Positions 25,803 to 61,029 of a stretch of DNA of 64,000 nt are shown one piece after another (position 1 is the stretch's first letter; each line of letters starts with the position of its first letter). Location of the stretch: contig JACQVQ010000008.1 of assembly GCA_016209685.1 (NCBI GenBank), positions 129,778 through 193,777 on the forward strand, read 5' to 3'. The notes beneath the pieces were generated by a model. That model made no database searches, had not been told where the DNA came from, and saw only the letters and a list, made by a program, of their open reading frames with translations. Source of the DNA: Planctomycetota bacterium (GTDB lineage: Bacteria; Planctomycetota; Brocadiia; Brocadiales; Bathyanammoxibiaceae). A program made the translations under genes and the position numbers.

Positions 25803-27602
25803 ATGATTCAATCTCAGTCGCTATCAATATTGAAGACGGGTGCAAATGTTTTTTTGACTGGTGAGCCCGGGTCAGGCAAGACGCATACGATCAACGAGTA
25901 TGTAGCGTATTTGCGGGCGCGAGGTATAGAGCCGGCAATCACGGCCTCAACGGGCATCTCCGCAACGCACATCGGCGGGATGACCATTCATTCGTGGAGC
26001 GGTATAGGAATTAAAACGAAATTGGACAAAGGCGATCTTGATAAAATCTCATCCAATCCATACATAGTAAATCGCATCAATCGCACCAAAGTCCTTATCA
26101 TAGATGAAGTGTCCATGCTTCCTCCTGAGACCCTCTCCATGATCGATGCTATTTGTAGCAAAATCAAACAGAGTTCAGGGCCGTTCGGGGGTATTCAAGT
26201 CGTCCTGGTCGGCGACTTTTTCCAATTGCCGCCGATTGTAAAAACAGGAGTGGGGAACGACTCGCAAACAATGTTCATTGAAGAGTTGCCGGCCCGTTTC
26301 GTTTACGACTCTCTTGCGTGGGGACGGGCAAACTTGGTCGTCTGCTATCTCACCGAGCAGTACCGGCAGGACGACAGCGATTTTCTTACTTTGCTCTCAG
26401 CAATTCGGCGCAACGCCTTCGGTGAAGACCACTTGTGCCACATTAAAAGCAGAAGAATTGGTCATCGTGCCGCACCGAATGGCGCACCGAAACTCTTTTC
26501 GCATAATGTAGATGTGGACCGTGTCAATGACGGAATACTCGCTAATCTTCCTGGCGAGTCAAAAGTATTTACCATGTCTTCGCAAGGTCCGGACGTGCTC
26601 GCCTCCGCACTTAAGAGAGGATGCCTTTCGCCAGAGACGCTTTACCTCAAAGTCGGAGCGGCCGTGATGTTCACAAAAAATAATCCGAAAGAAGGATTCG
26701 TGAATGGCACGCTTGGTGCGATTGAAGAATTTGATAAGCACAGTGGCTATCCAATCGTGAAGACACGGAGCGGAAGACGGATTGAGGTTGAGCCGATGGA
26801 CTGGGCAGTGGAAGAGAATGGAAAAATTCGGGCGCAGATTACGCAATTGCCACTTCGTCTTGCCTGGGCAATCACTGTGCATAAGAGCCAGGGGATGAGT
26901 TTGGACGAAGCGGTGATGGATTTAAGCAATGTCTTTGAATTCGGGCAAGGGTATGTCGCACTCTCGCGCGTCAGGCGGCTTTCGGGTCTGTATCTTCTTG
27001 GCTGGAATGAGCGTGCGTTTCAGGTGCACCCCGAAGTATCGGAAAAGGATGCGGAGTTCCGCACTCAGTCGGAGCAGACGGCGCGCACGTTCAGCAAGGT
27101 TGCGGGAGACGAGATTACAGCAATGCACGAGCGGTTCATTCACCTGTGCGGGGGGGAAATTATCCCAGAAAGCCGCGTTAGTGCGACGATAGCGTCTCGC
27201 CCTCTACACACGGCCCACGAGGACGGAAACACCCGAGGCGAGCGGCGCTGGGAACGCACCCTTGCCCTTATTCGGTCTGGAAAGACGATCGCTGAGGTTG
27301 CGAAGATGCGCGGCCGGACTGAAGGAACAATCCTGGAACATCTGGAGGCGCTTCGGGCACTCAATAAACTATCGGTACAAGATATTGCGCATCTAGCGCG
27401 CGGGTCTGAGGAGGCAATCGCCAAAATCCATAGGGCGTTTTGCGAACTCGGCACTAATAAACTCTCGCCTATTTTTAAAAAACTTGGCGGCGCATATTCA
27501 TACGACAAGTTGCGAATAGCCCGACTAATGCTCAACGAACAATTCCCACAGGAAACTTCTGTGTCATCTGGTTTTGAGAAAACAAGAGAAAGAGACCTCT
27601 GA
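25803..27602 (+). CDS. PIF1/RecD-family ATP-dependent DNA helicase with a C-terminal HTH-like extension
   Basis: Walker A GEPGSGKTH, LIIDEVSM, GDFFQLPPI, TVHKSQGMS. Arg codons are mostly CGN, unlike the neighbouring genes (AGR). The last codons and the stop lie inside a MITE. Confidence 0.85.
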   Translation: MIQSQSLSILKTGANVFLTGEPGSGKTHTINEYVAYLRARGIEPAITASTGISATHIGGMTIHSWSGIGIKTKLDKGDLDKISSNPYIVNRINRTKVLIIDEVSMLPPETLSMIDAICSKIKQSSGPFGGIQVVLVGDFFQLPPIVKTGVGNDSQTMFIEELPARFVYDSLAWGRANLVVCYLTEQYRQDDSDFLTLLSAIRRNAFGEDHLCHIKSRRIGHRAAPNGAPKLFSHNVDVDRVNDGILANLPGESKVFTMSSQGPDVLASALKRGCLSPETLYLKVGAAVMFTKNNPKEGFVNGTLGAIEEFDKHSGYPIVKTRSGRRIEVEPMDWAVEENGKIRAQITQLPLRLAWAITVHKSQGMSLDEAVMDLSNVFEFGQGYVALSRVRRLSGLYLLGWNERAFQVHPEVSEKDAEFRTQSEQTARTFSKVAGDEITAMHERFIHLCGGEIIPESRVSATIASRPLHTAHEDGNTRGERRWERTLALIRSGKTIAEVAKMRGRTEGTILEHLEALRALNKLSVQDIAHLARGSEEAIAKIHRAFCELGTNKLSPIFKKLGGAYSYDKLRIARLMLNEQFPQETSVSSGFEKTRERDL

Positions 27603-29995: not shown

Positions 29996-30118
29996 ATGGC
30001 CAAGGAGAAGCTGAACCTGAAGAGTCAGGAGGAGGCCGGGGAAAAGGCCCTGGAGATATTCAACAAGCGGGTAGATGATTTCTGGATAGCGAGATTAAAA
30101 GATAGGTTCAAAAGATGA
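29996..30118 (+). CDS. Possible 40-aa ORF translationally coupled (ATGA) to the nuclease gene
   Basis: MAKEKLNLKSQEEAGEKALEIFNKRVDDFWIARLKDRFKR. Its stop, TGA 30116-30118, overlaps ATG 30115. No family recognised. Confidence 0.25.
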   Translation: MAKEKLNLKSQEEAGEKALEIFNKRVDDFWIARLKDRFKR

Positions 30119-30816
30119 TAGATAAAAATTTTGTGGTAACTATCTTTTTGTTACTAGCTAAACCAATTGCGGCTTGGAATACAAAAATGAAGCGCCGCAG
30201 TTCAACAGACAAAGAATATTTTGTACAGGACTGGGTTGAGGAACAGTTACATGGGCATTTCCAAATTTACAGGCAAGGCAGAAATTCACATCCTGACTAT
30301 ATTCTTACATCAAACAGTATATCTCAAGGATTGGAGGTTAAATCCCTTGAGTGTCGTCGAAAAGATAAGGATTTGAAGATAGCACCTTGTAGGACAGACG
30401 TAGACTTTAACAGTTGCATCCCCTGTGGCTTTATAAAGTTTAGAGAGAAAAAGCTAAAATGTTATTATGCCTTCATTTTATATGAATCTGACGCTAAATC
30501 CTCACTTCATGTGAAAGGTGTTTCTATTGCCTTTGTAGATGGAGATTTCTTGAATAGAGATTTTGACTTAGCCGTGGGGCACCGCAATGTATCAGAAGGA
30601 GGGTTTGGAAGTTATGGAGATGCCTTTATTCGTACCCGTAAGATGTATAGATTCCCAAATCCGCTTACACATCCTCAGTTCAGATACCAGAATGTTTTAG
30701 TCACAGAATTCTGTTTGGAGAATCCATCTAGGTTTGGACTAAGACTACTATCCACTGTTCAAAAGAAGGATAAAACAGGTAAGGTGTGGCCTTTCAGTGT
30801 GTATACACCTGCCTAA
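30115..30816 (+). CDS. Putative PD-(D/E)xK restriction endonuclease
   Basis: HPDYILTSNSISQGLEVKS (PD...E-x-K). AT-rich. Convergent with the methylase gene, and the stop codons overlap (CTAA). Confidence 0.55.
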   Translation: MIDKNFVVTIFLLLAKPIAAWNTKMKRRSSTDKEYFVQDWVEEQLHGHFQIYRQGRNSHPDYILTSNSISQGLEVKSLECRRKDKDLKIAPCRTDVDFNSCIPCGFIKFREKKLKCYYAFILYESDAKSSLHVKGVSIAFVDGDFLNRDFDLAVGHRNVSEGGFGSYGDAFIRTRKMYRFPNPLTHPQFRYQNVLVTEFCLENPSRFGLRLLSTVQKKDKTGKVWPFSVYTPA

Positions 30817-33287
30817 AATAGGCCCAATTGATATTGTCTCTGTCTTTTCACAAACACTTTTTGTCCCTTAAAAATTTCCTCACTCACGGCATCAACAGAT
30901 ACCTCATTCGCTCTTAAAAACTTCTCCATAACTAATGCACTTTGCAGTCGAGAGAGTGGGGTTAAAATCTTTGCCATTAAAATTACTCTAATATCGTTTC
31001 GGCTTAGCCTCCTACCTCTTTGATTGAACATTTCCACGGTTGTTTGAGTCTTTTCTTTTGCCTCTTCTATCAAATCAGGCTGTAGTTTATGAAACGGTGT
31101 AATTGGCTCTTGCTTACGACACACAAAAATTATATCCAAATTAATAGGTTCTTTTGCCTGTTGCTTTGGCACTGCAACCGACATTTCTGATTTGACAGGA
31201 TGACTTGCTTCAATGTAGAAACCAGCTTGGTTCAGGGCTTTCAGTACAGAAATCCATCCCTCCTGCCTAGAGTGATGATACGTGAAAACCAGGAGTCCCC
31301 ACTTTTTCAATACCCTATGACAATCCTTGTAAACATAGGCAAGGTTTGTTGCAAATTTTTCAGGGTCGGTTTGTTGGACTTCTCTATCTGAACGTGTAGT
31401 TTCACAACGAAACACCTCTTTTGTGCCTAGTATATACCTTTGCCAAACGTAGAAAAAGTCTGCCAGTTGAGAGTAATGAACATTATCAAAAAAAGGTGGA
31501 TCAGTAACTACAACATCAACCGAATTATCCGCAATATCTGTCTTACACGAGCTACCACATGAAAGATATGTATCCAGGTTTTTCGTAGCAAATTCATTAT
31601 ATGTTCTGGCTATACGAGTTCCTATGGTTTGACTAAGGCCAAATATCTTTTTTGAGACGATTCTTCCATTTCTTTGAGACAGCTCAAGCTCAAAAGGCTT
31701 TTCACGGTATTGGACTGCACGAGTGAGTCTGCCCGCATAAAGGGTTGAAAAGGCACCAGAACTTTTGGGCGTCCCCCAAATATTTGCCTCAAGTGGTACT
31801 CTTTCTGGTTTTAAAATGTGGTGAGAAAACATGTGCCTAACTGCTCCAGTCCCTTCTCCTTTAAATGAACAAAACATATTGTTAAATTCTAGACACCCTG
31901 AAAACAGACAAGTAAAAAGACCTCGCAACCTTTCATCACTAATTTTTTTAATCCGTTCAGCTAAGATATGCAGGCAGAGAAGCTGACGATCGTTAAACAT
32001 TTGATGCCAATGGGTATATCCGTAATTTATAACCTGGTCTGTATTATACCCTGGCTTTATGGCTACTATGGGGTAAGGATTCTTATAATCCTTGAGTTCC
32101 TTCCTCACCCTTTCAAAAAGTTTTATATCAAAATCATTTATGGGAACATATTCCTTCACGCCATTGGGAAGCAAGACCATCTTTGCGTACATCCTGTGAG
32201 TTGGTGGACGTCCCGATAGTTGGTAAGTCTTAGCAATTGAGAGTTCGTGGTTGCAATTTGGGCAGGCAGCCTTACTACCTCTGGTTGGTCCCACATGGGG
32301 GTTGTACTGGAAGTAACATTTACTACAACAAGCAGTAAGGTCTTGAAAGTTAATAGTATTAACTTCACCACAATTGGGGCATAGTGATTTGGCCTTGGGG
32401 AATTGGGTAGGATAGGCATGTTGTGCAAAAACACGAGAAGAAAACAAATCCACTACATGCTCGCATTCTGGACAAGTAGTGGTCTTGACCCAAAAATAGT
32501 AAAGAACGTCTACTATACTGTCATTTTGAAGTCTCGTTTTATAGAATGCCTTTATCTTATCTGCAACATCCACCTCAATAGCACTGAATGTTGTTTGAAC
32601 TTCTTCCAAGGAATAATTTTCTAGCGAGTTACGAACCATAAAAAAGGAAACAGGATTTATATCCCTGCCAATCACCCGACAACCCAGCTTAAGTGCTTCT
32701 CCAAGGGTTGTTCCGCTTCCCATAAATGGGTCATAAATAACAAACCCCGGGTAACGCACTGGCTTATAGAAGAGATTTAGAATATTATTGCCCTCTGGTG
32801 TACATGCCCCGATGATTAGCGCACGAAATACAGTGCCAAGCCTCTGTGCCCACCACTTATGGACATGATAGATTGGACGATATATCTCCTTCCGCCAGCT
32901 TTCGTGCTCGGCAATCTCGCTTATTTCTTCAAAAGGAAACGAATCCTCAATTGCCTTGCGGAATTCTGTAGGTGCAGTATACGAGGCAAGTTCTTCAGCT
33001 ACCTTTTCAGGAGAAAAAGCTCTCCGCAGCCTCTTAATTGTTTCCGCTGGCTTTTTCTCTATAGCAGCCAACCATGCGGGAGGAACTCGTCCTGCAAGCA
33101 GAGTAAGCTCATCTGTATCCCAGCGTAAGACCCTTGCCAACTTTTTAACAAGAGCTACCGAAGGTGGGACTTTTTCGTTTTCTATTCTAGATAAATAGGC
33201 AAAATTGACGTCTAGTCTTTTGGCTAGAGATTTTAGGGAGACCCCTTTTCTTTTTCGTATCTTTCTTAAGTATGCCCCAAAAGACAT
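30813..33287 (-). CDS. DNA methyltransferase: N-terminal XRE-type HTH, DUF1156-like region and Zn-ribbon-containing N6/N4 methylase
   Basis: HTH LKSLAKRLDVNFAYLSRIENEK. HKWWAQRLG (DUF1156-like). Motif I DPFMGSGTT. Four CxxC pairs. Motif IV VVTDPPFFDNVHYSQLADFFYVW. Confidence 0.8.
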   Translation of the reverse strand: MSFGAYLRKIRKRKGVSLKSLAKRLDVNFAYLSRIENEKVPPSVALVKKLARVLRWDTDELTLLAGRVPPAWLAAIEKKPAETIKRLRRAFSPEKVAEELASYTAPTEFRKAIEDSFPFEEISEIAEHESWRKEIYRPIYHVHKWWAQRLGTVFRALIIGACTPEGNNILNLFYKPVRYPGFVIYDPFMGSGTTLGEALKLGCRVIGRDINPVSFFMVRNSLENYSLEEVQTTFSAIEVDVADKIKAFYKTRLQNDSIVDVLYYFWVKTTTCPECEHVVDLFSSRVFAQHAYPTQFPKAKSLCPNCGEVNTINFQDLTACCSKCYFQYNPHVGPTRGSKAACPNCNHELSIAKTYQLSGRPPTHRMYAKMVLLPNGVKEYVPINDFDIKLFERVRKELKDYKNPYPIVAIKPGYNTDQVINYGYTHWHQMFNDRQLLCLHILAERIKKISDERLRGLFTCLFSGCLEFNNMFCSFKGEGTGAVRHMFSHHILKPERVPLEANIWGTPKSSGAFSTLYAGRLTRAVQYREKPFELELSQRNGRIVSKKIFGLSQTIGTRIARTYNEFATKNLDTYLSCGSSCKTDIADNSVDVVVTDPPFFDNVHYSQLADFFYVWQRYILGTKEVFRCETTRSDREVQQTDPEKFATNLAYVYKDCHRVLKKWGLLVFTYHHSRQEGWISVLKALNQAGFYIEASHPVKSEMSVAVPKQQAKEPINLDIIFVCRKQEPITPFHKLQPDLIEEAKEKTQTTVEMFNQRGRRLSRNDIRVILMAKILTPLSRLQSALVMEKFLRANEVSVDAVSEEIFKGQKVFVKRQRQYQLGLF

Positions 33288-33403
33288 GACGGTATTATAA
33301 ATTGGTTGACAATATTGTCAACCAATTTGTAAAAGAAACTTTAGTGAAAAGATTCGTTCAATACGCAATTAAGAGCAAATGAAATACACGAAGTGGCTGA
33401 TAT

Positions 33404-33565
33404 CTACTTCCCATCCTCCATTACTTTATACTTTACTTCCTCTATTGCTTTGAAATCCAGATAACCCCTTTTCCAGGCCAGGAAGAGAGCTACTGCCGCC
33501 CCCATGAAGAAGAGTCCGCTTACAAAGAGCATCAGCCAGCTGGTGAAGAGGGGTGTGTCCTTCAC
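33404..33565 (-). CDS. ccoS: CcoS/FixS-like cbb3 oxidase maturation peptide
   Basis: A TM helix followed by LAWKRGYLDFKAIEEVKYKVMEDG (compare the RSGQ[FY]DD motif). The track ORF (to 33697) runs into repeat DNA. Start taken as GTG 33565 or ATG 33532; uncertain. Confidence 0.5.
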   Translation of the reverse strand: MKDTPLFTSWLMLFVSGLFFMGAAVALFLAWKRGYLDFKAIEEVKYKVMEDGK

Positions 33566-33596
33566 GGAGTCCAGGAGACAGGCGCAGGGAAAGACA

Positions 33597-33644
33597 GGGG
33601 TCAGGGGGTAGGGATTAGGGGCCAGGGGGTTGGGGGGGCGGGGG
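33597..33644 (+). repeat. G-run array (GGGG TCA GGGGG TA GGG ATTA GGGG CCA GGGGG TT GGGGGGG C GGGGG)
   Basis: Read directly. Adjacent to the AT-rich repeat at 33654-33693. Confidence 0.8.
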
Positions 33645-33725
33645 TAAGACCCCATTGGAAATTGGAAATTGGAAATTTTAAATTTTAAAATTTTCATTTT
33701 ACAATTTACAATCTCTCAGTTTTCC

Positions 33726-45431: not shown

Positions 45432-45673
45432 GAGACCTTTGCAAAAGTCTCAACCACACTACTTGTCATTCTGAGTGAGCCAAAGCCCTGAGCGGAGCGA
45501 AGGGGAAGCGAAGAATCTAGACCCTTCGCTCCGCTCAGGGTGACATTTCGGATTAGAGATTCTTTCCGCCTCAGGCGGGCTTTGCTCCCTCAGACGCCGT
45601 CAGATTCGCTTCGCTCACTACAAGCCTGAGCGAAGCCGAAGGAATGACATTTAAGGTGTCTTTCAGAGGTCTC
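45432..45673. mobile_element. MITE, composite 242-bp copy, TSD TAAAT
   Basis: GAGACCTTTGCAAAAG...CTTTCAGAGGTCTC. TAAAT flanks it at 45427-45431 and 45674-45678. Sits between the stop of the type IIG gene and the PEBP start. Confidence 0.88.
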
Positions 45674-48600
45674 TAAATATCCTTCTCTACGCCTGGATAG
45701 ACATCGTCAATAGCCTTCTGGACTTTAATGGTTTTCTGGAGTGTGGTGATAATCTTACAGTAATACTTTATATCATTAAGGGATAACCTTCTTCCTTTTC
45801 TAGCCTTTTTCCTATCCTTTAGCCATTTATCGCAGACTTGGTAGCCCCCGATTTGATATTGCCAGACTCCTTCTTCTAGCCCTTCAAAATATTGGTTTGG
45901 GTTTATATAGACCTTGTCTTTATCATATCTAACCTTTTCAACCACGTTATCCCCCTTACCTTGAAACTTGGCAACGGGTGGGTCAAGCTCAGGGGACTTT
46001 AATAGGTGTAAATCAACCAGTTTTTTCCCATATTCTCCCATCTTGCAGAAAAGCTTATAATCTTTCGTGAAGGGGATCCTTGGAAAATCAATCTTTAGAA
46101 ACTCGGCGTACTTTGTGCGGTAGGTATTGGAGTAGAGGACGGCATAGATGTAATGGAAGATTTGCTCAGGAGAAGGTGTCTTCTTAAAGGCTTTTGTTAG
46201 TTGTTCCATAAGTGCAGGGGAGAGGTTCGGCCTCTTTGCCCCATACTCTGCCTGTGACTCAAAGAGCATCATAATACCACCTGAAGATTTCTTTTTAGGG
46301 TTGTCCTTCTCTGGGTAGAGGTAGAGGGGGGCTTGTTGAATAATTCCTCTACTACTTAGGAATGTCCTATTGTCGACTATGTGTTCACTCACAAGAAAAT
46401 GGGTGTAATCTTCCTCTAATGAGACCTGTCTCATGAAGCAAATTGACAAGTTCTCCTGTACCATATGACGCATGACCTCTGGACGTGGTCTACAATGAAA
46501 CCCCCCTGAATTGCCAGTATAGTAGGTGTATCTTACGTCAAATGGTCTGTATAGAATTGGGACCATCTTTTTCCTGTCTAGGCCGCTTTCTTTCAAATCT
46601 TTTTGGGCTGTCTCTATGCTCCAGTCTTTTGAATCCTTGCCTAGATTATAAGCCCTTCGTGCTAACTCTTTATCAATCTTAGAAAAGTTTAATACTGTAG
46701 ACCAGACCTCATCAGGCGTCCACCTTATGGTCAGACTATCCCTTGCCGTAACTATTCCTACACTGTTTACGGGGAAGATGTCGGTTATCTTTAGATACTT
46801 CTCATAATTTTTTAAAAGTTTTTCGTCTCTCGGAATAAAGAGATAGAATTCAGATTTGGGTGACAGCGTTCGCCACTTGGTCGTTTCTATATCATGCTTC
46901 AGGAGCCAATTGTATTTCTTCTCCCACAACCCCCAAACCTCTGAATGATAAACCTTACACCCTTTCTTCGTACCCTGCCTCTTTATGAAAAGGGCAATAG
47001 CTACTCCCTGCTGTATATCAAAGACGTTCTCGTCTTTAGAACCATCAGGACATTTCTCCTTTTTCCGGGTGTTGCCGTGCAAATCAAGTAAATAAATCTC
47101 ATTAAAACTGTCCATCAGGGACTTTCGCATACCCCTAAAGGTGGGGTTATCAAGATAGCTATGGTTGGTGATGAATCCTAAAACCCCTTCCCCGGCCGTA
47201 TCTATCTTCCACTGGGCGAAACGGATAAACTTTACGTAATCGTCCTGAAGCCACTTGGGATTCTTTTCCCCTAAAGGCTTTCCATCAACCTGATAGTAAG
47301 CCCTACTCTCCTTTGATATCCATTCTCCCAGATTGTAGGAATGGCCTGAATAGGGCGGATTACCTAGTATGGCTAGTATAGGCTGTTCCTTTTTGATCTT
47401 TCCTGCCGAATGGGATTCCTCAGAGAGAGAGGCCATGCCGGGGAGTTCTGTCTGGGCCAGTTCTTCCATTTCTAACGTATTGGTTAGGTAGAGTTTGAAC
47501 CTGTCATCTTTCTGTAGTCTGTAGCCAAGTTCTTCCAGGAGGAAGGACATCTTCAGGTGGCCCACTGCGTAAGGGGCCATCATCAATTCAAAGGCATAGA
47601 AATTTTTGAGGATGTGCTCTTTTATGAGATTCTCTCTTCCGCCTTCACCATATTTGGAGCAGAATTCCTCCACTGCCAATTTGCTTGCCTCGGCCAGGAA
47701 GGTGAGGGTGCCGGCGGCTGGGTCTAGAACGGTAACCGAGGTACTCGCAAATCCGTTCTGCCTATCAAAACCCTCTTTCAAGACCTTATGCAAGGAGCGG
47801 ACGATATAGGAAACAACAGGTTCAGGCGTATAGTATACGCCCCTCTTCTCTCTAGTTGCCGGGTCGTATTCAGCCAGAAAGGTCTCATAGAAGTGGATGA
47901 TAGGGTCTTTGCCCATCCCTTCGTGAAAATATTTATGGAGGATATTTTTTACATCGGTAATTGCTAAGACCTCTGAGATGTCATCAGTAATCCACTCCAT
48001 CTGCTGGGGTAGTTCGCCAAGTGAAATGAATTGGAAAACATCCCTTAAAATGCCTATAGTAGGTGGAATTTTGTTGTATGCGAGTTTTCTATTGAACCCA
48101 TTCTCAGAGCGGGTACGTGCGGCAAAGAGTCCGTATGTAACGGTCTGTGAGTAGAGGTCGGCAAAGTCCTCCCCAGAGAGGTCGCTTATAAGATATTGTT
48201 TGAATGCCTGATAGAACCCCAGGATAAACCCTTTCCCTGCCTTTTCTTCTTCCTTCAGTTCCTGTGCAACGACCTCGTCCTTCAAGAAGCGTGTCCGCTT
48301 TGCCAGTTCTACCGCCAGGGTCTTTGCGTCGTAGACCCTGGGCAGGGAGAAGGAAAAGAATTTTTCTAGTAGTTTAAGAAAATTTGACTCTTTTTCTGCC
48401 GGCGGGACGGTTTTAAGCTGATGGGCAATAAAAGGTCTACCAACAAGGACTTTATCTATTAATATGCCGTTGCGATAAAGCCTGAATTCAAAGAAGTTGG
48501 TCAGTATCAGGTTGGGGAAGGTGTGCAGGTAGCGTTTCAGCTGGCCCGTAGTTTCTATCTGGTCTAAATACTCTGTGGTGGGGCTTTTGGCCTCAACATA

Positions 48601-48810
48601 GCCAACTATATGCTGTTTCCCGTCCCACACCCTGAAATCGGGGTTACCTGCCTCTGTCTTCTTTGGGAGGGTGGTTACATGTATGTCTTGTTTGTTTACT
48701 GATTTTGCATATTCTTCCAACAGTTCTTTGAGAATGGGGTAATAACTTTCCTCCCTGGCATCCCCCTGGCTGGCAACCTCAGATATTTCTTTTAGATATG
48801 GTTTTAACAC
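45673..48810 (-). CDS. Single-polypeptide type IIG-like restriction-modification enzyme (PD-ExK nuclease, gamma-class N6-adenine methylase, specificity region)
   Basis: N-terminal PDFRVW...GYVEAKSP (PD...ExK). Motif I VLDPAAGTLTF. Motif IV GNPPYSG. C-terminal FHYIYAVLYSNTYRTKYAEFLKIDFPRIP. AT-rich. Confidence 0.75.
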   Translation of the reverse strand: MLKPYLKEISEVASQGDAREESYYPILKELLEEYAKSVNKQDIHVTTLPKKTEAGNPDFRVWDGKQHIVGYVEAKSPTTEYLDQIETTGQLKRYLHTFPNLILTNFFEFRLYRNGILIDKVLVGRPFIAHQLKTVPPAEKESNFLKLLEKFFSFSLPRVYDAKTLAVELAKRTRFLKDEVVAQELKEEEKAGKGFILGFYQAFKQYLISDLSGEDFADLYSQTVTYGLFAARTRSENGFNRKLAYNKIPPTIGILRDVFQFISLGELPQQMEWITDDISEVLAITDVKNILHKYFHEGMGKDPIIHFYETFLAEYDPATREKRGVYYTPEPVVSYIVRSLHKVLKEGFDRQNGFASTSVTVLDPAAGTLTFLAEASKLAVEEFCSKYGEGGRENLIKEHILKNFYAFELMMAPYAVGHLKMSFLLEELGYRLQKDDRFKLYLTNTLEMEELAQTELPGMASLSEESHSAGKIKKEQPILAILGNPPYSGHSYNLGEWISKESRAYYQVDGKPLGEKNPKWLQDDYVKFIRFAQWKIDTAGEGVLGFITNHSYLDNPTFRGMRKSLMDSFNEIYLLDLHGNTRKKEKCPDGSKDENVFDIQQGVAIALFIKRQGTKKGCKVYHSEVWGLWEKKYNWLLKHDIETTKWRTLSPKSEFYLFIPRDEKLLKNYEKYLKITDIFPVNSVGIVTARDSLTIRWTPDEVWSTVLNFSKIDKELARRAYNLGKDSKDWSIETAQKDLKESGLDRKKMVPILYRPFDVRYTYYTGNSGGFHCRPRPEVMRHMVQENLSICFMRQVSLEEDYTHFLVSEHIVDNRTFLSSRGIIQQAPLYLYPEKDNPKKKSSGGIMMLFESQAEYGAKRPNLSPALMEQLTKAFKKTPSPEQIFHYIYAVLYSNTYRTKYAEFLKIDFPRIPFTKDYKLFCKMGEYGKKLVDLHLLKSPELDPPVAKFQGKGDNVVEKVRYDKDKVYINPNQYFEGLEEGVWQYQIGGYQVCDKWLKDRKKARKGRRLSLNDIKYYCKIITTLQKTIKVQKAIDDVYPGVEKDI

Positions 48811-56968: not shown

Positions 56969-58438
56969 ATGATACGGGTACGTTTTGCCCCCTCCCCGAC
57001 AGGCCCCATACACCTGGGTAATGCCAGGACGGCCCTCTTTAACTGGCTCTTCGCCAGGCATAATGGCGGAGTCTTCATACTCAGGATTGAGGATACAGAC
57101 GTTACCCGCTCAGACCCCCGTTACACCCAACTAATTATGGACGACCTCCGGTGGTTAGGGATGGACTGGCAGGAGGGGCCGGATGCGGGAGGGCCTTACG
57201 GGCCTTACGTCCAGTCTCAGAGGCTCTCCACATACCAGGATTTTGCAGAGAAGTTACTGGAGGAAGGGAAGGCCTATCCCTGTTACTGTACCCAGTCGGA
57301 ACTGGAGGAGCGACGGAAGGCGGCCCTGGCCAGGGGCAGACCCCCACGCTATGACAATCGCTGCAGAAACCTATCTGAGGCGGAGAAGAAGGCCCTTGAG
57401 TCGCAGGGCAGAAGACCTTCCCTGCGGTTCCTCATACCGCCTGGCGAGAAATTGGCCTTTGAGGACATGATTAGGGGTAGATGCGAATTCAACCTGTCCG
57501 TGTTAGGGGATTTTGTGATTATGAAGGCAGACGGTACACCCTCTTTCCACATGGCAGTGGTGGTGGACGATGCCCTGATGAGAATAACCCACGTAATACG
57601 TGGTGAAGACCACCTGAGTAATACACCCTTGCATATCCTCCTCTTTGAGGCCCTGGGTTTCCCCAGGCCGCACTACGCCCACCTGCCCATGATAGCAGGG
57701 GAGGAGGGAGACCCGCTCAGTAAGAGGGCTGGTGCCTTTTCCATCCAGGATTACAAGGGGTGGGGCTATCTACCCGAGGCCCTGGTCAACTATATGCTGT
57801 TACTGGGCTGGAGTCCAGGACAGAAGCAGGAAAAACTTACCCTGGCGGAGGCGGTGGAGAGATTTGACGTGAGGCACGTAAGTAAATCCCCCGCCCATTT
57901 TGACCCAAAGAAACTAGACTGGCTGGCAGAAAAGTATCTTCGTCAGGCAGACTCAGAGAGGCTGATAGAACTAATTGTTCCCCTCCTGCCAGAGGAGGCC
58001 AAGAAGGTGGAACGACCAAGGCTAAAGGCCCTCGTAGAGGCTGTCAGGCCGGGGCTTGCCAACCTGTCCCAGGTAGTAAAAGAGTCTGAATGGTTCTTCA
58101 AGGAACCCGTCTTGGACGAAGGCCAGATAACGGCCTTGTCCAGCGACAAACCCCGGGCCGTCCTTGCCCAGGTACTTGAGGCACTTGAAGGGCAGGAAGA
58201 AAGTTTTATTAAAGAGTATAATAAATTTATAAAACAGTTGGCCGAAAAGGGTGGCCTCGCCCCAAAGGAGGTAATGATGCCCCTGAGGCTGGCCCTGACG
58301 GGGAGTACCCATGGCCCCGAACTGGTTGCCGTCATCTCCCTCCTCGGCCATGAGGGATGCAAAAGGAGACTAAAGAAACTACTCACACAGATTGGGCAGT
58401 TGAATAAGAATGAAATCAATCTACTTAAAGAGACATGA
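56969..58438 (+). CDS. gltX: Glutamyl-tRNA synthetase
   Basis: RFAPSPTGPIHLGNARTAL (HIGH) and a PLSKR (KMSKS-like) motif. Confidence 0.95.
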   Translation: MIRVRFAPSPTGPIHLGNARTALFNWLFARHNGGVFILRIEDTDVTRSDPRYTQLIMDDLRWLGMDWQEGPDAGGPYGPYVQSQRLSTYQDFAEKLLEEGKAYPCYCTQSELEERRKAALARGRPPRYDNRCRNLSEAEKKALESQGRRPSLRFLIPPGEKLAFEDMIRGRCEFNLSVLGDFVIMKADGTPSFHMAVVVDDALMRITHVIRGEDHLSNTPLHILLFEALGFPRPHYAHLPMIAGEEGDPLSKRAGAFSIQDYKGWGYLPEALVNYMLLLGWSPGQKQEKLTLAEAVERFDVRHVSKSPAHFDPKKLDWLAEKYLRQADSERLIELIVPLLPEEAKKVERPRLKALVEAVRPGLANLSQVVKESEWFFKEPVLDEGQITALSSDKPRAVLAQVLEALEGQEESFIKEYNKFIKQLAEKGGLAPKEVMMPLRLALTGSTHGPELVAVISLLGHEGCKRRLKKLLTQIGQLNKNEINLLKET

Positions 58439-60128
58439 GCTTTTTAAAGAGCTAAGTCTGCTGGCTAGTAAGGCGATAGACGCCTGCATCCTGAGTACCT
58501 CTACGCTGAATGAAGAGCTGTCCAGGCAGTGCCTAAATGAGTGTGTCAGAATCACGCGGGACGATGGTCTAATCTTTGTCCATGGACTACCGCATACCCT
58601 ACCCTCTTTGCTAGAACCTTTAATGGAGAGTCTTACGTTTAAATACTGGATTGCGATAGAATCTACTCCTGTAAAAGAAGGAAGATGCCTTCCTACTACT
58701 CACTCTGCGGTGGTGCTCTTCGCAAAACAAAAAAAGTACTTCCAAATAAATAAGGCACGATTCCCTCATAGGTACTGTGCCTTTTGCAATAAGACCCTGA
58801 AAGACTGGGGAGGTAAGGCCCACTTGATGCATCCAGACGGATTTGCCGTATCAGATGTCTGGAGACATTTTCCGAAGGCAGATAATTACACCAAGATTTC
58901 CTTACCTGTATTGCAGGCCCTCTTTTCTCTGGCTAATGTGGGGGAGAAAGCAATCTGTGCCGTAGGACCATTAGAAGCCCTCTCTTTTAGAGAGCCTGAT
59001 TACTCCGAGACGACGAAGAGACTAAAATCAATTAATGCACACATTGCGGAGGAACTATTTGATAAATTATACAGCCAGTACGCCTTATCCTTAGAATCCT
59101 CTAGTAAACATACTAAAAAACAATTACCTGGCGAAGTCAAAGTAAATACTCTTGATGAGACTTTACTGGACAAAGTACATCAAGGGGATATAGTAGAAAT
59201 ACTAAAGAGGTATCCTCCAAACTCAGTGGATCTGGTCTTTGCCGACCCTCCGTATAATCTTGACAAAATGTACAACTCTTACGATGACAAAAAGAAAGAA
59301 GGCCTCTACCTGGAGTGGTGTAACTCATGGCTAAAAGAATATATCAGGGTATTGAAGCCCACAGGCTCACTCTTCCTTCTAAACCTTCCCAAATGGGCAA
59401 TCTACCACGCACGTTTCTTGAACCAGTATCTGTTCTTTCAGAACTGGATTGTCTGGGATGCCGTGTCTGAACCACGTGGCAAACTAATGCCTTCTCATTA
59501 CGCACTGCTTTTTTATACAAAACATCCTACTGACTTTACTTTTAACTATGATAGAGTTTCAGAGATTGATGCTCCAACCTTTTGCATTAGGGCTGGCTGT
59601 ATAAAGGAGAGAAAAAAACAGGGCATTGACCAAAAAGTTCCTCTCACAGATATCTGGTGGGATATTCATAGGATAAAGCATAAAAAGGAACGAGACCCCC
59701 ATCCATGCCAGTTGCCTGAAAAATTAATGGAAAGGATAATCCTCCTCACCACAAATGAGGGGGACGTTGTGCTAGATGGTCTTTGTGGAACAGGCACTAC
59801 ACCCCTCGTGGCCACCAGGTTGAAGAGACGATACATTGCTATAGATTTGGATAGAAACTATGTAGAGATAACCAGAAGAAAACTGCAAGAGATAAAGAGC
59901 AAGGGTTACATCTGGAGAGAACCTATCAAAAGATACAAAAAACCAATTACTAAAAAACAATTACAACTTGAGCTAAGAGGGCTAACGAAGACCCTGGGTA
60001 GATTGCCCACAGAAGGAGATATAAGGTCAATGAGCAAATACAGCCTGGAGACATTTAAGGAGAACTTCCCCTCATTAGGAAAGGCCCTTAAGGCGGCTAA
60101 ACTGGAGGTGATGAGTGAAGCCACCTGA
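58410..60128 (+). CDS. Beta-class N6/N4 DNA methyltransferase with an N-terminal degenerate half-domain and a C-terminal homing-endonuclease-associated-repeat-like segment
   Basis: Motif IV VDLVFADPPYNL and motif I VVLDGLCGTGTT. aa ~50-160 parallel aa ~310-420 but lack DPPY. C-terminal GRLPTEGDIRSMSKYSLETFKENFPSLGKALKAAKL. The start overlaps the end of gltX by 29 nt. Confidence 0.8.
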   Translation: MKSIYLKRHELFKELSLLASKAIDACILSTSTLNEELSRQCLNECVRITRDDGLIFVHGLPHTLPSLLEPLMESLTFKYWIAIESTPVKEGRCLPTTHSAVVLFAKQKKYFQINKARFPHRYCAFCNKTLKDWGGKAHLMHPDGFAVSDVWRHFPKADNYTKISLPVLQALFSLANVGEKAICAVGPLEALSFREPDYSETTKRLKSINAHIAEELFDKLYSQYALSLESSSKHTKKQLPGEVKVNTLDETLLDKVHQGDIVEILKRYPPNSVDLVFADPPYNLDKMYNSYDDKKKEGLYLEWCNSWLKEYIRVLKPTGSLFLLNLPKWAIYHARFLNQYLFFQNWIVWDAVSEPRGKLMPSHYALLFYTKHPTDFTFNYDRVSEIDAPTFCIRAGCIKERKKQGIDQKVPLTDIWWDIHRIKHKKERDPHPCQLPEKLMERIILLTTNEGDVVLDGLCGTGTTPLVATRLKRRYIAIDLDRNYVEITRRKLQEIKSKGYIWREPIKRYKKPITKKQLQLELRGLTKTLGRLPTEGDIRSMSKYSLETFKENFPSLGKALKAAKLEVMSEAT

Positions 60129-61029
60129 ACCAAGAAAGCTGTCCTTTGAGGAGGCATGGGAAAGTACAACTGAATTCTTTGTTGATGATAGTGTAGAAGA
60201 AGAGGTTGACAAGAAGATTGAAAATATATACACGGCGACCCGTGGGGTTCATAAGTTTGAAAATATAGACGAGTTTGCCCAGTTTTTAAAAGATGAAGAA
60301 GGTGCGTTAGACTCCGTTTTGGCAGACGTTGGCCTTCCACAAGAGAGATTCAAAAGAATAATAACTTTGTTAAGGAGAAAAGGTAGGATACCAGGAGGTT
60401 TTGACCAGGAATGGGGTATTGGAAGGATAAGAAGACTACTCGTGGACAACGCATTCGCCCATACAATTGCAAACGTCCTTTTCCATGGTAAGGAAGACCC
60501 TTTCCTGAAGAGATACCTCCCGAAATATTACCGAGAAAAGTTAAATTGGGAAGAAATTAGCGACTACGAAGGGAGAAAATTAAAAATAAAAGAAACTATT
60601 TATCGTAGAGAATACGCAAATATCAGGGGCAGAAAGATAGAAGAAATTATAGGGAAAAAACTTGAGGCCATTAAACGCAAATATGGAATAGATTACGGAC
60701 GAGGGCGTTCAAGGCTAGTAGATGTTGACGTTGACTGGGCAGTTCCTGGGGTAGAGGCCCCCTGGGTAGTTATAATGGTTTCCTATCAGGAGACTACATC
60801 CAGTGGACAGACAACGAAGGCACGTGATATGTTGAATGCCTATAATCGCATACGCACTTCAAACAGCCGGAATAGAGAGAACAGGGCTTTTGTTAATTTT
60901 ATTGATGGAGTGGGTTGGCTGGCAAGAAAGGCTGACTTTAAAAGACTTATAGGTGAATGCCATTACTTCTTAAATCTGAAAAATCTGGACATACTGGAAG
61001 GGATCGTGCTAAAACACGTAACTAAGTGA
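60115..61029 (+). CDS. Putative restriction endonuclease partner of the 58410 methylase (assigned by context only)
   Basis: GTG start 4 nt after GGAGGTG, 14-nt overlap with the methylase gene, AT-rich. I could not pin down a catalytic motif. Confidence 0.4.
   Translation: MKPPEPRKLSFEEAWESTTEFFVDDSVEEEVDKKIENIYTATRGVHKFENIDEFAQFLKDEEGALDSVLADVGLPQERFKRIITLLRRKGRIPGGFDQEWGIGRIRRLLVDNAFAHTIANVLFHGKEDPFLKRYLPKYYREKLNWEEISDYEGRKLKIKETIYRREYANIRGRKIEEIIGKKLEAIKRKYGIDYGRGRSRLVDVDVDWAVPGVEAPWVVIMVSYQETTSSGQTTKARDMLNAYNRIRTSNSRNRENRAFVNFIDGVGWLARKADFKRLIGECHYFLNLKNLDILEGIVLKHVTK

What the first reader, a model, noticed from the sequence alone, without database searches (positions are those of the whole stretch)
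29996..33287. Compact HTH-DUF1156-type Zn-ribbon methylase paired with a small PD-(D/E)xK nuclease: a minimal version of a usually multi-gene defence module?
The 824-aa methylase combines four parts:
- an XRE-type HTH (a controller-protein-like function fused to the enzyme);
- a DUF1156-like segment (HKWWAQRLG);
- motif I, followed by ~400 aa containing four CxxC pairs;
- motif IV, DPPFFDNVHYSQLADFFYVW.

To my knowledge, DUF1156-type methylases are usually reported in defence islands with large ATPase or helicase partners (DUF499, DUF3780 and similar). None is present here.

The only partner is a convergent 233-aa ORF with PD...EVK whose stop codon overlaps the methylase stop (CTAA). A 40-codon ORF is coupled to its start by ATGA.
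Basis: partly seen in the sequence, partly recalled or inferred. Interest (0 to 1): 0.65.

Follow-up and report, generated by a model that had tools for sequence, protein, structure and literature searches.

The report
Self-regulating two-gene restriction-modification cassette
A 3.4-kb imported cassette encodes a DNA methylase with a built-in repressor domain and a small unclassified nuclease; the pair recurs across many bacterial phyla, so it looks like a widespread, unannotated restriction-modification family and not a cut-down multi-gene defence system.

Summary
The three ORFs, the ATGA and CTAA overlaps, the HTH, motifs I and IV and four CxxC pairs are all present, in a low-G+C insert between housekeeping genes.

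The methylase is a distant relative of DUF1156-type methylases but fails the Pfam and NCBIfam thresholds. It belongs to a separate, very large clade. In 79 of 85 sampled loci from many phyla, the only conserved neighbour is a relative of the 233-aa protein. No ATPase or helicase recurs.

The partner family matches no Pfam, NCBIfam, PADLOC or PHROG model. E34, P60-D61, E74 and K76 are conserved. A confident AlphaFold model hits only PD-(D/E)xK enzymes, weakly, with EcoRV and HincII on top.

New finding: a palindrome, GTTGAC-N6-GTCAAC (33305-33322), overlaps the -35 of a perfect sigma-70 promoter whose -10 ends 6 nt before the methylase ATG. This site is present in all 23 HTH-fused loci and at no methylase promoter in 70 HTH-less loci. 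HTH-fused methylases are always convergent with the nuclease gene.

Best reading: a Type II restriction-modification pair whose methylase represses its own leaderless promoter. The 40-codon ORF is not conserved and is probably not a component. No activity, recognition site or regulation was tested.

The parts
30080..33450 (.). Low-G+C insert (about 3.4 kb) carrying the two-gene cassette and its promoter. It sits between an Ogt-type gene and a cbb3 oxidase operon.
   Evidence: G+C is 0.33-0.45 inside against about 0.52-0.60 outside. The flanks are housekeeping genes. No convincing flanking direct repeats were found.
30115..30816 (+). 233-aa predicted PD-(D/E)xK restriction endonuclease. It belongs to a family that no profile library recognises.
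   Evidence: No Pfam, NCBIfam, PADLOC or PHROG match. AlphaFold2 model has pLDDT 87.7 and pTM 0.87. The listed PDB fold hits are nearly all PD-(D/E)xK enzymes, led by EcoRV (E 5e-3) and HincII, but are weak. 322 cluster representatives at E<=1e-3 among 1.84 billion proteins. A family member lies next to the methylase in 79 of 85 loci.
30292..30342 (+). Catalytic signature P60-D61 ... E74-V-K76. The conserved upstream acidic residue E34 is at 30214-30216.
   Evidence: Invariant in 24 close homologues and 93-96% conserved across 72 sequences in three sub-families. In the model, D61 sits just before strand 62-66 and E74/K76 lie within strand 69-79, after helix 35-45 and strand 49-53. This is the canonical core order.
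30813..33287 (-). 824-aa DNA amino-methyltransferase, probably N6-adenine. Order of parts: HTH, linker, DUF1156-like helices, motif I half, about 360-aa insert with two Cys4 zinc ribbons, motif IV half, C-terminal helical domain.
33093..33287 (-). N-terminal XRE-type helix-turn-helix domain (residues 1-65), the predicted operator-binding autorepressor module.
   Evidence: HTH_3 E 3e-12. pLDDT is 87-92. It superposes on SinR, ImmR and DdrO DNA-binding domains (TM normalised to target 0.85-0.87, rmsd about 1 A) and on the R-M controller C.BclI (0.73).
32763..32954 (-). DUF1156-like helical segment (residues 112-175, includes HKWWAQRLG).
   Evidence: PF06634 gives 18.2 bits, below the cut-off of 24. 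9 of 19 family members match at E<=0.01, best 1.8e-6. Residues H143, K144, W145, W146, A147, R149 and L150 are invariant.
32706..32732 (-). Motif I, DPFMGSGTT (AdoMet binding), residues 186-194.
   Evidence: Invariant. It aligns to positions 181-213 of the 221-position N6_N4_Mtase profile, so the motif order is permuted relative to that family.
32253..32474 (-). Two predicted Cys4 zinc ribbons (C272/C275/C303/C306 and C321/C324/C342/C345) within the insert.
   Evidence: All eight cysteines are invariant in 84 homologues. Weak zinc-ribbon Pfam matches appear in several members. The model is poor here, with pLDDT below 50 for 282-339.
31482..31502 (-). Motif IV, DPPFFDN (catalytic), residues 596-602.
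   Evidence: Invariant. Matched by the N6_N4_Mtase profile and the PADLOC methylase profiles.
33294..33321 (-). Methylase promoter: TTGACA, 16-nt spacer, TATAAT (12 of 12 consensus positions). The -10 ends 6 nt before the ATG at 33287 and there is no Shine-Dalgarno sequence, which predicts a leaderless mRNA.
   Evidence: The same geometry (5-9 nt, mode 7, no Shine-Dalgarno-like sequence) holds in 20 of 22 HTH loci.
33305..33322 (.). Predicted operator GTTGACAATATTGTCAAC (GTTGAC-N6-GTCAAC), overlapping the -35 box. It is the core of a 38-nt near-perfect palindrome at 33295-33332.
   Evidence: It is the only match in the window, with 0.10 expected by chance. The strict form occurs in 15 of 23 HTH loci: about 36 nt upstream of the called ATG in 14 of them and 108 nt upstream in L035. 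It occurs in 0 of 70 HTH-less loci (818 kb). The relaxed regular expression matches somewhere in 23 of 23 against 2 of 70. In L007 that match is not at the promoter, but the promoter there carries a close variant seen by eye and. The 19-nt arms are 95% complementary.
29996..30118 (+). 40-codon ORF overlapping the nuclease start (ATGA). Probably not a component of the system.
   Evidence: No family match. Absent upstream of the nuclease gene in L089 (79% identical nuclease) and in L091/L092 (65%). It lies mostly in DNA of G+C 0.57 outside the insert. The other assemblies that contain it are identical in sequence to the window and so add no information.

Best explanation
This is a horizontally acquired Type II restriction-modification cassette made of two genes.

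The methylase. The 824-aa enzyme is an amino-methyltransferase, most likely N6-adenine. This is inferred from the DPPF motif IV and from its nearest profiles. It is expected to protect host DNA at a recognition sequence that remains unknown.

The nuclease. The convergent 233-aa protein is the cognate PD-(D/E)xK endonuclease, expected to cut unmethylated DNA. This is inferred from the conserved motif, the predicted fold and the conserved gene linkage.

Regulation. The methylase's N-terminal HTH is predicted to bind, as a dimer, the palindrome GTTGAC-N6-GTCAAC. That palindrome overlaps the -35 box of the methylase's own consensus promoter. The predicted sequence of events is this. On entering a new cell, the unrepressed promoter drives a burst of leaderless methylase mRNA. 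As the enzyme accumulates it excludes RNA polymerase and shuts its own gene down.

More speculative step. The two genes converge with a 4-nt overlap and no terminator was detected between them. Early methylase transcription should therefore run antisense through the nuclease gene and hold it back. Autorepression would then release the nuclease, giving the order 'methylase first, nuclease later'.

The 40-codon ORF is not part of the system.
For: Shown by computation:
- Both catalytic signatures are present and conserved.
- The nuclease model is confident (pLDDT 87.7). Its structural neighbours are PD-(D/E)xK enzymes, led by EcoRV, HincII and SfiI.
- The pair is conserved in 79 of 85 loci from Nitrospirota, Chloroflexota, Planctomycetota, Acidobacteriota, Cyanobacteria, Alpha- and Gammaproteobacteria, Actinomycetota and others. 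It occurs in three gene orders with unrelated flanking genes, and no third family recurs.
- It travels on mobile DNA, including an 8.2-kb MOBQ plasmid. In the window it forms a low-G+C insert.
- Operator: there is one site in the window, at the promoter. Operator and HTH co-occur across loci, including G+C-rich genomes. The spacing of operator, -10 and ATG is fixed and no Shine-Dalgarno sequence is present.
- All 20 HTH-fused methylases are convergent with the partner (21 of 21). HTH-less ones are 6 convergent and 51 co-directional, Fisher p = 1.6e-13. An NJ tree suggests at least three independent transitions.

Precedent: M.Ecl18kI and M.SsoII repress their own promoter through a separate N-terminal DNA-binding domain by steric exclusion, and that indirectly controls the nuclease promoter (PMC2760811; PMC3978073).
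Against: - No enzymatic activity, methylation motif, DNA binding or transcript was tested.
- The fold matches are weak (best E 5e-3, TM at most 0.38). No solved relative exists by sequence.
- The methylated base, m6A or m4C, is not determined.
- No promoter was detected for the nuclease gene in the window. The insert boundary lies only about 35 nt upstream of its ATG, so the nuclease may be poorly expressed or silent here.
- The antisense-interference step rests only on gene geometry and the lack of a predicted terminator.
- Six HTH-less convergent loci show that convergence does not require the HTH.
- The Fisher test is not corrected for phylogeny, and the NJ tree has no support values.
- The 80 genome loci are the best-scoring of at least 585 matches, not a random sample.
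Confidence: 0.75

Rival explanations
1. One reading: the pair is a reduced form of the multi-gene DUF1156 defence systems (Hma: DUF3883 helicase, DUF1156 methylase, DUF499 ATPase; or BREX-related systems). In this view a small nuclease has taken over the effector role.
For: The methylase is homologous over residues 113-806 (about 31% identity, E 9e-87) to plasmid proteins annotated as DUF1156. One of these lies in a DUF3883-DUF1156-DUF499 locus. The best PADLOC and NCBIfam methylase matches are DUF1156_MTase, PglXI, HmaB and DUF1156_antiphage. BREX-related methylases are described as carrying the DUF1156 helical domain and an insert after the second core strand (bioRxiv 10.1101/2025.10.09.681413).
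Against: It scores 119 bits against an NCBIfam cut-off of 1000, and 18.2 against a Pfam cut-off of 24. The clade is large and is a two-gene unit throughout, with no recurrent ATPase or helicase and no intermediate architectures among 85 loci. In plasmids, the nuclease partner tracks only the methylases that are 39% or more identical, not the DUF1156-annotated ones.
Confidence: 0.07
2. The methylase is an orphan or epigenetic-regulatory methylase that uses its HTH to control other genes. The 233-aa protein is then an unrelated PD-(D/E)xK enzyme, such as a resolvase or repair nuclease, or an inactive DNA-binding partner, and not a restriction enzyme.
For: Holliday-junction resolvases and a homing endonuclease are also among the weak fold hits. 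Some loci have the methylase alone or with a decayed partner (L016, L020, L057, L080, L086). The methylase family also matches a phage methyltransferase family (phrog_10183, E 1e-110), and phage methylases are often solitary.
Against: The gene pair is tightly linked in 79 of 85 loci despite three different gene orders and unrelated flanks. The catalytic residues are conserved. The only operator in the window lies at the methylase's own promoter. In L078 the partner position is taken by a different ORF with an HNH-like motif, which I judged by eye. That kind of effector swapping is typical of restriction-modification systems.
Confidence: 0.08
3. The cassette is a restriction-modification pair, but the HTH is not an autorepressor. 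Either the palindrome is simply a strong promoter with fortuitous symmetry, or the HTH helps recognise the methylation target.
For: TTGACA is the -35 consensus, so part of the conservation could be promoter conservation. Binding was not tested.
Against: The second half-site, GTCAAC, has no promoter role yet is conserved at fixed spacing even in G+C-rich genomes. The palindrome is absent from all 70 HTH-less loci, whose methylases also need promoters. In the window the symmetry extends to 38 nt.
Confidence: 0.08

Closest known systems
SsoII / Ecl18kI / EcoRII / MspI-type systems, in which the methyltransferase carries an N-terminal DNA-binding domain that autoregulates the system (PMC2760811, PMC3978073)
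   Same: An HTH-containing N-terminal region is fused to the methylase through a flexible linker. An operator lies in the methylase's own promoter. The predicted repression is by steric exclusion of RNA polymerase, with an indirect effect on the nuclease gene.
   Different: Those enzymes are C5-cytosine methyltransferases of about 380-480 aa (the EcoRII and MspI details are from my own knowledge). Their R and M genes are divergent or face-to-face around one shared control region. Here the enzyme is an 824-aa amino-methyltransferase with permuted motif order and zinc ribbons. The genes converge with overlapping stops, about 3.2 kb from the operator. The promoter is predicted to be leaderless.
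C-protein (controller) regulated Type II systems such as PvuII and BclI (PMC2175313; C.BclI structure 2b5a)
   Same: An XRE-type HTH regulator is dedicated to timing a restriction-modification system. The HTH domain here superposes on C.BclI (TM 0.73). From my own knowledge, not checked here: leaderless transcripts have been reported for C genes such as pvuIIC.
   Different: C proteins are separate small genes, usually co-transcribed with the nuclease gene, that act as activator-repressors on paired C-boxes. Here the HTH is part of the methylase, there is one palindromic site, and only repression is predicted.
DUF1156 methylases of Hma (HmaB) and BREX-related or type 3 BREX (PglXI) systems
   Same: Homologous over nearly the whole catalytic region (about 31% identity). 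Both have the N-terminal HKWWA-type helical segment and a large insert between motif I and motif IV.
   Different: This protein falls below the family thresholds. Its only partner is a small nuclease, with no DUF499 ATPase or DUF3883 helicase. It carries an added N-terminal HTH. The eight invariant cysteines were shown only within this clade; whether Hma or BREX methylases share them was not checked.
EcoRV / HincII-type Type IIP restriction endonucleases (PD-(D/E)xK fold)
   Same: Similar size (about 230-250 aa), stand-alone proteins, with the same core order and the same signature of an acidic residue followed by ExK. They are the top structural neighbours.
   Different: There is no detectable sequence similarity. 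The fold match is weak (TM 0.2-0.38). The family has further conserved motifs of its own (R93, D97-x-N99, P103-C-G105, R173-x-R175-x-M177). Its cleavage specificity is unknown.

Membership tests
Type II restriction-modification system | A DNA methyltransferase with an AdoMet-binding motif and a catalytic motif | tested here: met
   N6_N4_Mtase E 6e-14. DPFMGSGTT and DPPFFDN are invariant.
Type II restriction-modification system | A separate endonuclease gene next to the methylase gene, with the linkage conserved | tested here: met
   A PD...ExK protein lies adjacent in 79 of 85 loci, in three gene orders, with no third conserved gene.
Type II restriction-modification system | Sequence-specific cleavage that is blocked by the cognate methylation, giving a restriction phenotype | not testable with these tools
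   This needs enzyme assays, a methylome, or phage and plasmid restriction tests.
PD-(D/E)xK nuclease superfamily | Conserved acidic and lysine catalytic residues on the alpha-beta-beta-beta core | tested here: met
   E34, D61, E74 and K76 are conserved. Their positions in the model match helix 35-45 and strands 49-53, 62-66 and 69-79.
PD-(D/E)xK nuclease superfamily | Significant structural similarity to solved members | tested here: inconclusive
   Nearly all top hits are PD-(D/E)xK enzymes, but the best E is 5e-3 and TM is at most 0.38. A profile search of PDB sequences found nothing.
DUF1156 (Pfam PF06634) / NCBIfam NF042963 anti-phage-associated DUF1156 protein | A score at or above the curated family cut-off | tested here: not met
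   PF06634 gives 18.2 bits against 24. NF042963 gives 119 bits against 1000. 9 of 19 relatives reach E<=0.01 for PF06634.
Hma / BREX-related multi-gene defence systems | A DUF499 ATPase and a DUF3883 or other helicase (or the BREX core genes) encoded beside the methylase | tested here: not met
   None is in the insert. None recurs in 85 loci. In contrast, the Halosimplex locus has DUF3883, DUF1156 and DUF499 genes together.
SsoII-like autoregulating methyltransferases | An N-terminal HTH domain fused to the methylase | tested here: met
   HTH_3 at residues 7-61. It superposes on SinR and ImmR-type domains.
SsoII-like autoregulating methyltransferases | An operator for that domain within the methylase promoter | tested here: met
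   This is comparative evidence only. The palindrome overlaps the -35 box and co-occurs with the HTH (strict form in 15 of 23 HTH loci against 0 of 70 HTH-less loci; relaxed form in 23 of 23 against 2 of 70). Binding itself was not tested.
SsoII-like autoregulating methyltransferases | A C5-cytosine methyltransferase catalytic domain, with R and M genes arranged around one shared control region | tested here: not met
   The catalytic domain is an amino-methyltransferase (DPPF; N6_N4_Mtase). The genes are convergent, and the operator is about 3.2 kb from the nuclease start.
C-protein-controlled restriction-modification systems | A separate small controller gene with C-boxes | tested here: not met
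   There is no separate HTH gene in the insert. The 40-aa ORF has no family match and is not conserved.

The most novel reading that the evidence does not exclude
The pair represents a restriction-modification family that spans many phyla and whose endonuclease belongs to a PD-(D/E)xK family unknown to Pfam, NCBIfam, PADLOC and PHROGs. Current defence-system finders would then score it as a lone methylase. In one recurrent sub-type, the whole establishment timer is built into the methylase. The parts are a consensus, operator-gated, leaderless promoter plus convergent read-through into the nuclease gene. The regulatory HTH has been gained or lost several times in step with changes of gene order.
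Probability: 0.4. Interest if true: 0.55.

Novelty: new variant of a known kind. Interest (0 to 1): 0.45.

Why it matters
If confirmed, three things follow.

1. It would add a widespread and so far unclassified endonuclease family to the restriction-enzyme repertoire: 322 clusters at 50% identity, with the cognate methylase family in at least 585 stretches of a one-genome-per-species collection. It would also flag a blind spot in automated defence annotation.

2. It would extend the "methylase as its own repressor" principle. As far as I know that principle has been described only for C5-cytosine methylases with divergent genes. Here it would apply to an amino-methyltransferase in a convergent layout.

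3. It offers a natural comparative series for asking how gene order and regulation of toxic gene pairs co-evolve: the same two proteins occur as convergent with HTH, convergent without HTH, and co-directional in either order. Cultured carriers exist, so the questions are directly testable.

Tried and rejected
- Profile searches of the 233-aa protein and five diverse relatives against Pfam, NCBIfam, PADLOC and PHROGs found nothing.
- Sequence and profile searches of the PDB found no nuclease relative. For the methylase they found only HTH domains.
- The word-indexed homology search returned only 37 nuclease relatives and badly understated the family. Translated searches of the methylase loci and the exhaustive profile search were needed to see it.
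- The methylase structure model was only moderate (pLDDT 67.8, with the insert poorly modelled). Its fold search gave domain-level hits only, so it cannot define the target-recognition domain.
- I looked for a second operator near the nuclease gene and found none.
- I looked for a nuclease promoter and for a terminator between the genes. Neither was convincing.
- I looked for flanking direct repeats or a tRNA integration site for the insert and found none.
- I looked for the 40-aa ORF in relatives and found none. Assemblies with the identical locus are uninformative.
- I noticed that the operator half-sites GTTGAC and GTCAAC fit the HincII site as I recall it (GTYRAC), and that HincII is among the fold hits. 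I judge this probably a coincidence of the -35 consensus plus symmetry. Testing it needs a methylome, so it is not claimed.
- No Rfam family lies in the region.
- REBASE could not be consulted, so I cannot exclude that members are already listed there as putative enzymes.

Full report

Yes. The ORF scan gives a 40-codon ORF at 29996-30118 (+), a 233-aa ORF at 30115-30816 (+) and an 824-aa ORF at 30813-33287 (-). The junctions are as described. ATGA lies at 30115-30118. CTAA lies at 30813-30816, so the two stop codons overlap.

The three ORFs sit in a patch of low G+C: 0.33-0.45 from about 30080 to 33450, against about 0.52 around it. On one side is an O6-methylguanine-DNA methyltransferase gene. 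On the other are cbb3 oxidase genes (FixO, COX1). This is therefore an isolated imported insert, not a defence island. I found no flanking repeats and no adjacent tRNA.

**2. The methylase**

Pfam finds HTH_3 at residues 7-61 (E 3e-12) and N6_N4_Mtase (E 6e-14). Motif I aligns to the end of that profile, so the motif order is permuted relative to the profile: motif I, then a long insert, then motif IV.

DUF1156 is detected only below threshold: 18.2 bits against a gathering score of 24, E 0.0028. The NCBIfam "anti-phage-associated DUF1156" model gives 119 bits against a cut-off of 1000. The best PADLOC profiles are DUF1156_MTase, PglXI and HmaB at about 1e-23 to 1e-26, covering only part of the protein.

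In an alignment of 19 homologues, DPFMGSGTT and DPPFFDN are invariant. In 84 homologues all eight cysteines of the four CxxC pairs are invariant. The insert between the motifs is about as conserved as the catalytic halves. Its most conserved stretch is residues 471-520 (mean majority-residue frequency 0.90). The C-terminal domain is the most variable part (0.45).

The AlphaFold2 model is moderate (pLDDT 67.8). The HTH is confident. It superposes on SinR, ImmR and DdrO DNA-binding domains (TM about 0.85, rmsd about 1 A) and on the restriction-modification controller C.BclI. The catalytic core matches M.PvuII and CcrM only weakly. No solved full-length relative exists.

The family is very large: more than 5000 hits in the protein database. 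It has HTH-fused forms (about 828 aa) and HTH-less forms (about 746 aa). A phage family is also related (phrog_10183, E 1e-110).

**3. The 233-aa protein**

It matches nothing in Pfam, NCBIfam, PADLOC or PHROGs, and neither do five diverse relatives.

In 24 close homologues E34, P60, D61, E74 and K76 are invariant. Across 72 sequences in three visibly different sub-families, P/D are 93-94% conserved and E/K 96% conserved. Further motifs specific to the family are also conserved.

The AlphaFold2 model is confident (pLDDT 87.7, pTM 0.87). The conserved residues fall on a helix-strand-strand-strand core in the canonical order.

Foldseek against the PDB returns essentially only PD-(D/E)xK enzymes: EcoRV (E 5e-3), HincII, SfiI, MvaI, Hjc resolvases and I-Ssp6803I. 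Scores are weak, with TM at most 0.38. The viral library gives PD-(D/E)xK domain proteins and resolvases, equally weakly. A profile search of PDB sequences finds nothing.

The exhaustive profile search finds 322 cluster representatives at E<=1e-3 among 1.84 billion. Almost all are short proteins of up to about 440 aa, many of them fragments.

**4. Are the two genes a unit, and is anything else part of it?**

I used the methylase alignment to collect 80 loci from a collection holding one genome per species. At least 585 stretches matched.

A translated search with the 233-aa protein found a relative (27-47% identical) directly beside the methylase in 72 of the 80 loci, and in all loci fetched through nuclease homologues. 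A family profile rescued one more (L040) and showed a frameshifted remnant in L080.

Clustering all neighbouring ORFs across 85 non-redundant loci gave only two recurrent protein families: the methylase (85 loci) and the partner (79 loci). The other clusters have median lengths of about 85-140 aa. The examples I checked lie inside the two genes on other frames or strands, so I read them as shadow ORFs.

Three arrangements occur among all 86 loci then held, which include six from two near-identical sets: partner downstream on the same strand (40), convergent (27), and partner upstream on the same strand (11). Flanking genes are unrelated from locus to locus.

In the plasmid collection, the four closest methylase homologues (39-46% identical) all have the partner beside them. 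They are annotated "DNA methyltransferase" (two of them "hypothetical protein"), with the partner "hypothetical protein" or, once, "DUF956 family protein". One pair sits on an 8.2-kb MOBQ plasmid next to a DUF262 / HEPN-like nuclease pair.

More distant methylases, annotated DUF1156 (about 31% identical), have no such partner.

But this protein belongs to a different clade that is a two-gene unit throughout.

**5.

Read on the gene strand, the sequence upstream of the methylase ATG is:

ACAAATTGG**TTGACA**ATATTGTCAACCAATT**TATAAT**ACCGTC**ATG**

This is a 12-of-12 sigma-70 consensus promoter. Its -10 ends 6 nt before the ATG, and no Shine-Dalgarno sequence is present. That predicts a leaderless mRNA.

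The -35 box lies inside a perfect palindrome, GTTGACAATATTGTCAAC (33305-33322). This is the core of a 38-nt near-perfect palindrome. It is the only match to GTTGAC-N6-GTCAAC in the 64-kb window, with 0.10 expected by chance.

The same palindrome sits at the same place in relatives whose flanking DNA is unrelated. Counts over all loci held:

| Form of the palindrome | HTH-fused loci | HTH-less loci (818 kb) |
|---|---|---|
| Strict, GTTGAC-N6-GTCAAC | 15 of 23 | 0 of 70 |
| Relaxed regular expression | 23 of 23 | 2 of 70, at unrelated positions |

- Of the 15 strict sites, 14 lie about 36 nt before the called ATG. The one in L035 lies 108 nt upstream.
- In L007 the relaxed match is not at the promoter, but the promoter there carries a close variant.
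- The HTH-fused loci with the palindrome include G+C-rich genomes.

In 20 of 22 HTH loci the start codon lies 5-9 nt (mode 7) after the predicted -10, and none has a Shine-Dalgarno-like sequence.

All 20 HTH-fused methylases with a detected partner are convergent with it, 21 of 21 after L040 was rescued. HTH-less ones are 6 convergent and 51 co-directional. Fisher p = 1.6e-13, not corrected for phylogeny.

An unsupported NJ tree of the methylase core places HTH-bearing enzymes in at least three or four clades, interleaved with HTH-less clades that have co-directional partners. The association therefore reflects several transitions, not one.

**6. Mechanism**

Inferred from conserved signatures, linkage and mobility:
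- A methylase, probably m6A given DPPF and its nearest profiles, and a cognate PD-(D/E)xK endonuclease form a Type II restriction-modification pair.

Inferred from comparative evidence and precedent:
- The HTH binds the palindrome and excludes RNA polymerase from the -35 box. M.Ecl18kI and M.SsoII do this at their own promoters (PMC2760811; PMC3978073).
- In a naive cell the consensus leaderless promoter would give an immediate burst of methylase, which then shuts itself off.

More speculative:
- The genes converge with a 4-nt overlap and no predicted terminator lies between them.
- Early methylase transcription would therefore run antisense through the nuclease gene and delay it. Autorepression would then relieve this.
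- Reverse promoters and antisense RNA are known regulators in EcoRI (PMC3141266; PMC3874152).

One caveat applies to this window specifically. No promoter was found for the nuclease gene, and the insert boundary is only about 35 nt upstream of its ATG. Nuclease expression here may depend on read-through from the Ogt-type gene, or it may be low.

**7. The 40-codon ORF**

It has no family match. It lies mostly in DNA of G+C 0.57 outside the insert. It is absent upstream of the nuclease gene in the nearest non-identical relatives, L089 (79% identical nuclease) and L091/L092 (65%). The other assemblies that contain it are identical in sequence to the window. It is most likely a local accident of the insertion site. 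Translational coupling to the nuclease start cannot be excluded.

**8. Comparison and novelty**

- In function the cassette is an ordinary Type II restriction-modification system.
- Its regulation works like SsoII and Ecl18kI. It is not a member of that group, because the catalytic domain is an amino-methyltransferase and the gene layout is convergent.
- It is not a C-protein system, because there is no separate controller gene.
- It is not a member of the DUF1156 / Hma / BREX-related systems: the thresholds are not met and the partner genes are absent.
- The endonuclease family is unclassified in every library available here.
- I could not consult REBASE, so members may already be listed there as putative enzymes.

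I rate it a new variant of a known kind, of moderate interest. The mechanism class is familiar. Three things are not described in anything I could search: the breadth of the unannotated nuclease family; the fused repressor on an amino-methyltransferase with a conserved operator and a leaderless promoter; and the coupling between HTH presence and gene order.

**9. Limits**

- Nothing here is experimental.
- The fold evidence for the nuclease is consistent but weak.
- The recognition sequence and the methylated base are unknown.
- ORF calling in the loci was mechanical.
- The 80 genome loci are the top-scoring matches, not a random sample.
- The tree has no support values.

Noticed in passing
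window 45673-48810 (-): A 1045-aa ORF with N6_Mtase plus a Type ISP C-terminal specificity domain (E 1e-92), in a low-G+C patch (0.42-0.46). It looks like a second, Type IIG/ISP-like modification or restriction-modification gene.
   Followed up: partly
window 58410-61029 (+): A 572-aa N6_N4_Mtase (E 7.5e-55) with an HNH-associated repeat. A 304-aa ORF with no Pfam match overlaps its end (60115-61029). G+C is about 0.41. This may be a third restriction-modification pair with an unclassified nuclease.
   Followed up: partly
window 25803-27602 (+): A 599-aa PIF1-like helicase with a C-terminal HTH_40 domain lies 2.4 kb from the cassette, in DNA of host-like G+C and separated from it by three unrelated genes. 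It is not part of the unit.
   Followed up: partly
L078 8572-9339 (-), Gammaproteobacteria MAG OZ241901.1: This locus has an HTH-fused methylase with the operator. In the convergent position it has a 255-aa ORF that the partner-family profile does not match. By eye the ORF carries an HNH-like motif (DHRTPH...CGRHQ). It looks like an effector swap.
   Followed up: partly
L080 8209-8619 (+); also L016, L020, L057, L086: In L080 the partner gene is a frameshifted remnant: its first 27 or so residues match the family and then the match is lost. Several other loci have the methylase alone. These suggest decay towards orphan methylases.
   Followed up: partly
L087 (Tabrizicola piscis plasmid NZ_CP034332.1) 1543-6936: An 8.2-kb MOBQ plasmid carries the partner-methylase pair directly followed by a DUF262 protein and a HEPN-like nuclease. 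That is two defence-type pairs on one tiny plasmid.
   Followed up: no
L092 228-2929 and L091 2603-4141: The same HTH-methylase/nuclease cassette (65% identical nuclease) lies beside a SIR2 plus DUF87 pair in one assembly and beside a reverse transcriptase gene in another. This shows the cassette moves between contexts.
   Followed up: no
L004 10929-11201 (-): In an HTH-less convergent locus, a 90-aa PhdYeFM-antitoxin-like gene abuts the methylase start on the same strand. It might serve as a separate regulator in place of the fused HTH.
   Followed up: no
window 33305-33322: Both operator half-sites (GTTGAC, GTCAAC) fit the HincII recognition pattern as I recall it (GTYRAC), and HincII is among the weak fold neighbours of the nuclease. 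This is probably a coincidence of the -35 consensus plus symmetry. If the system did recognise such sites, methylation could modulate its own operator.
   Followed up: no
window 33404-33697 (-): A 97-aa ORF with no Pfam match lies between the cassette and the cbb3 oxidase genes. Its N-terminal part is proline-rich and the region carries G-rich repeats (33596-33642).
   Followed up: no
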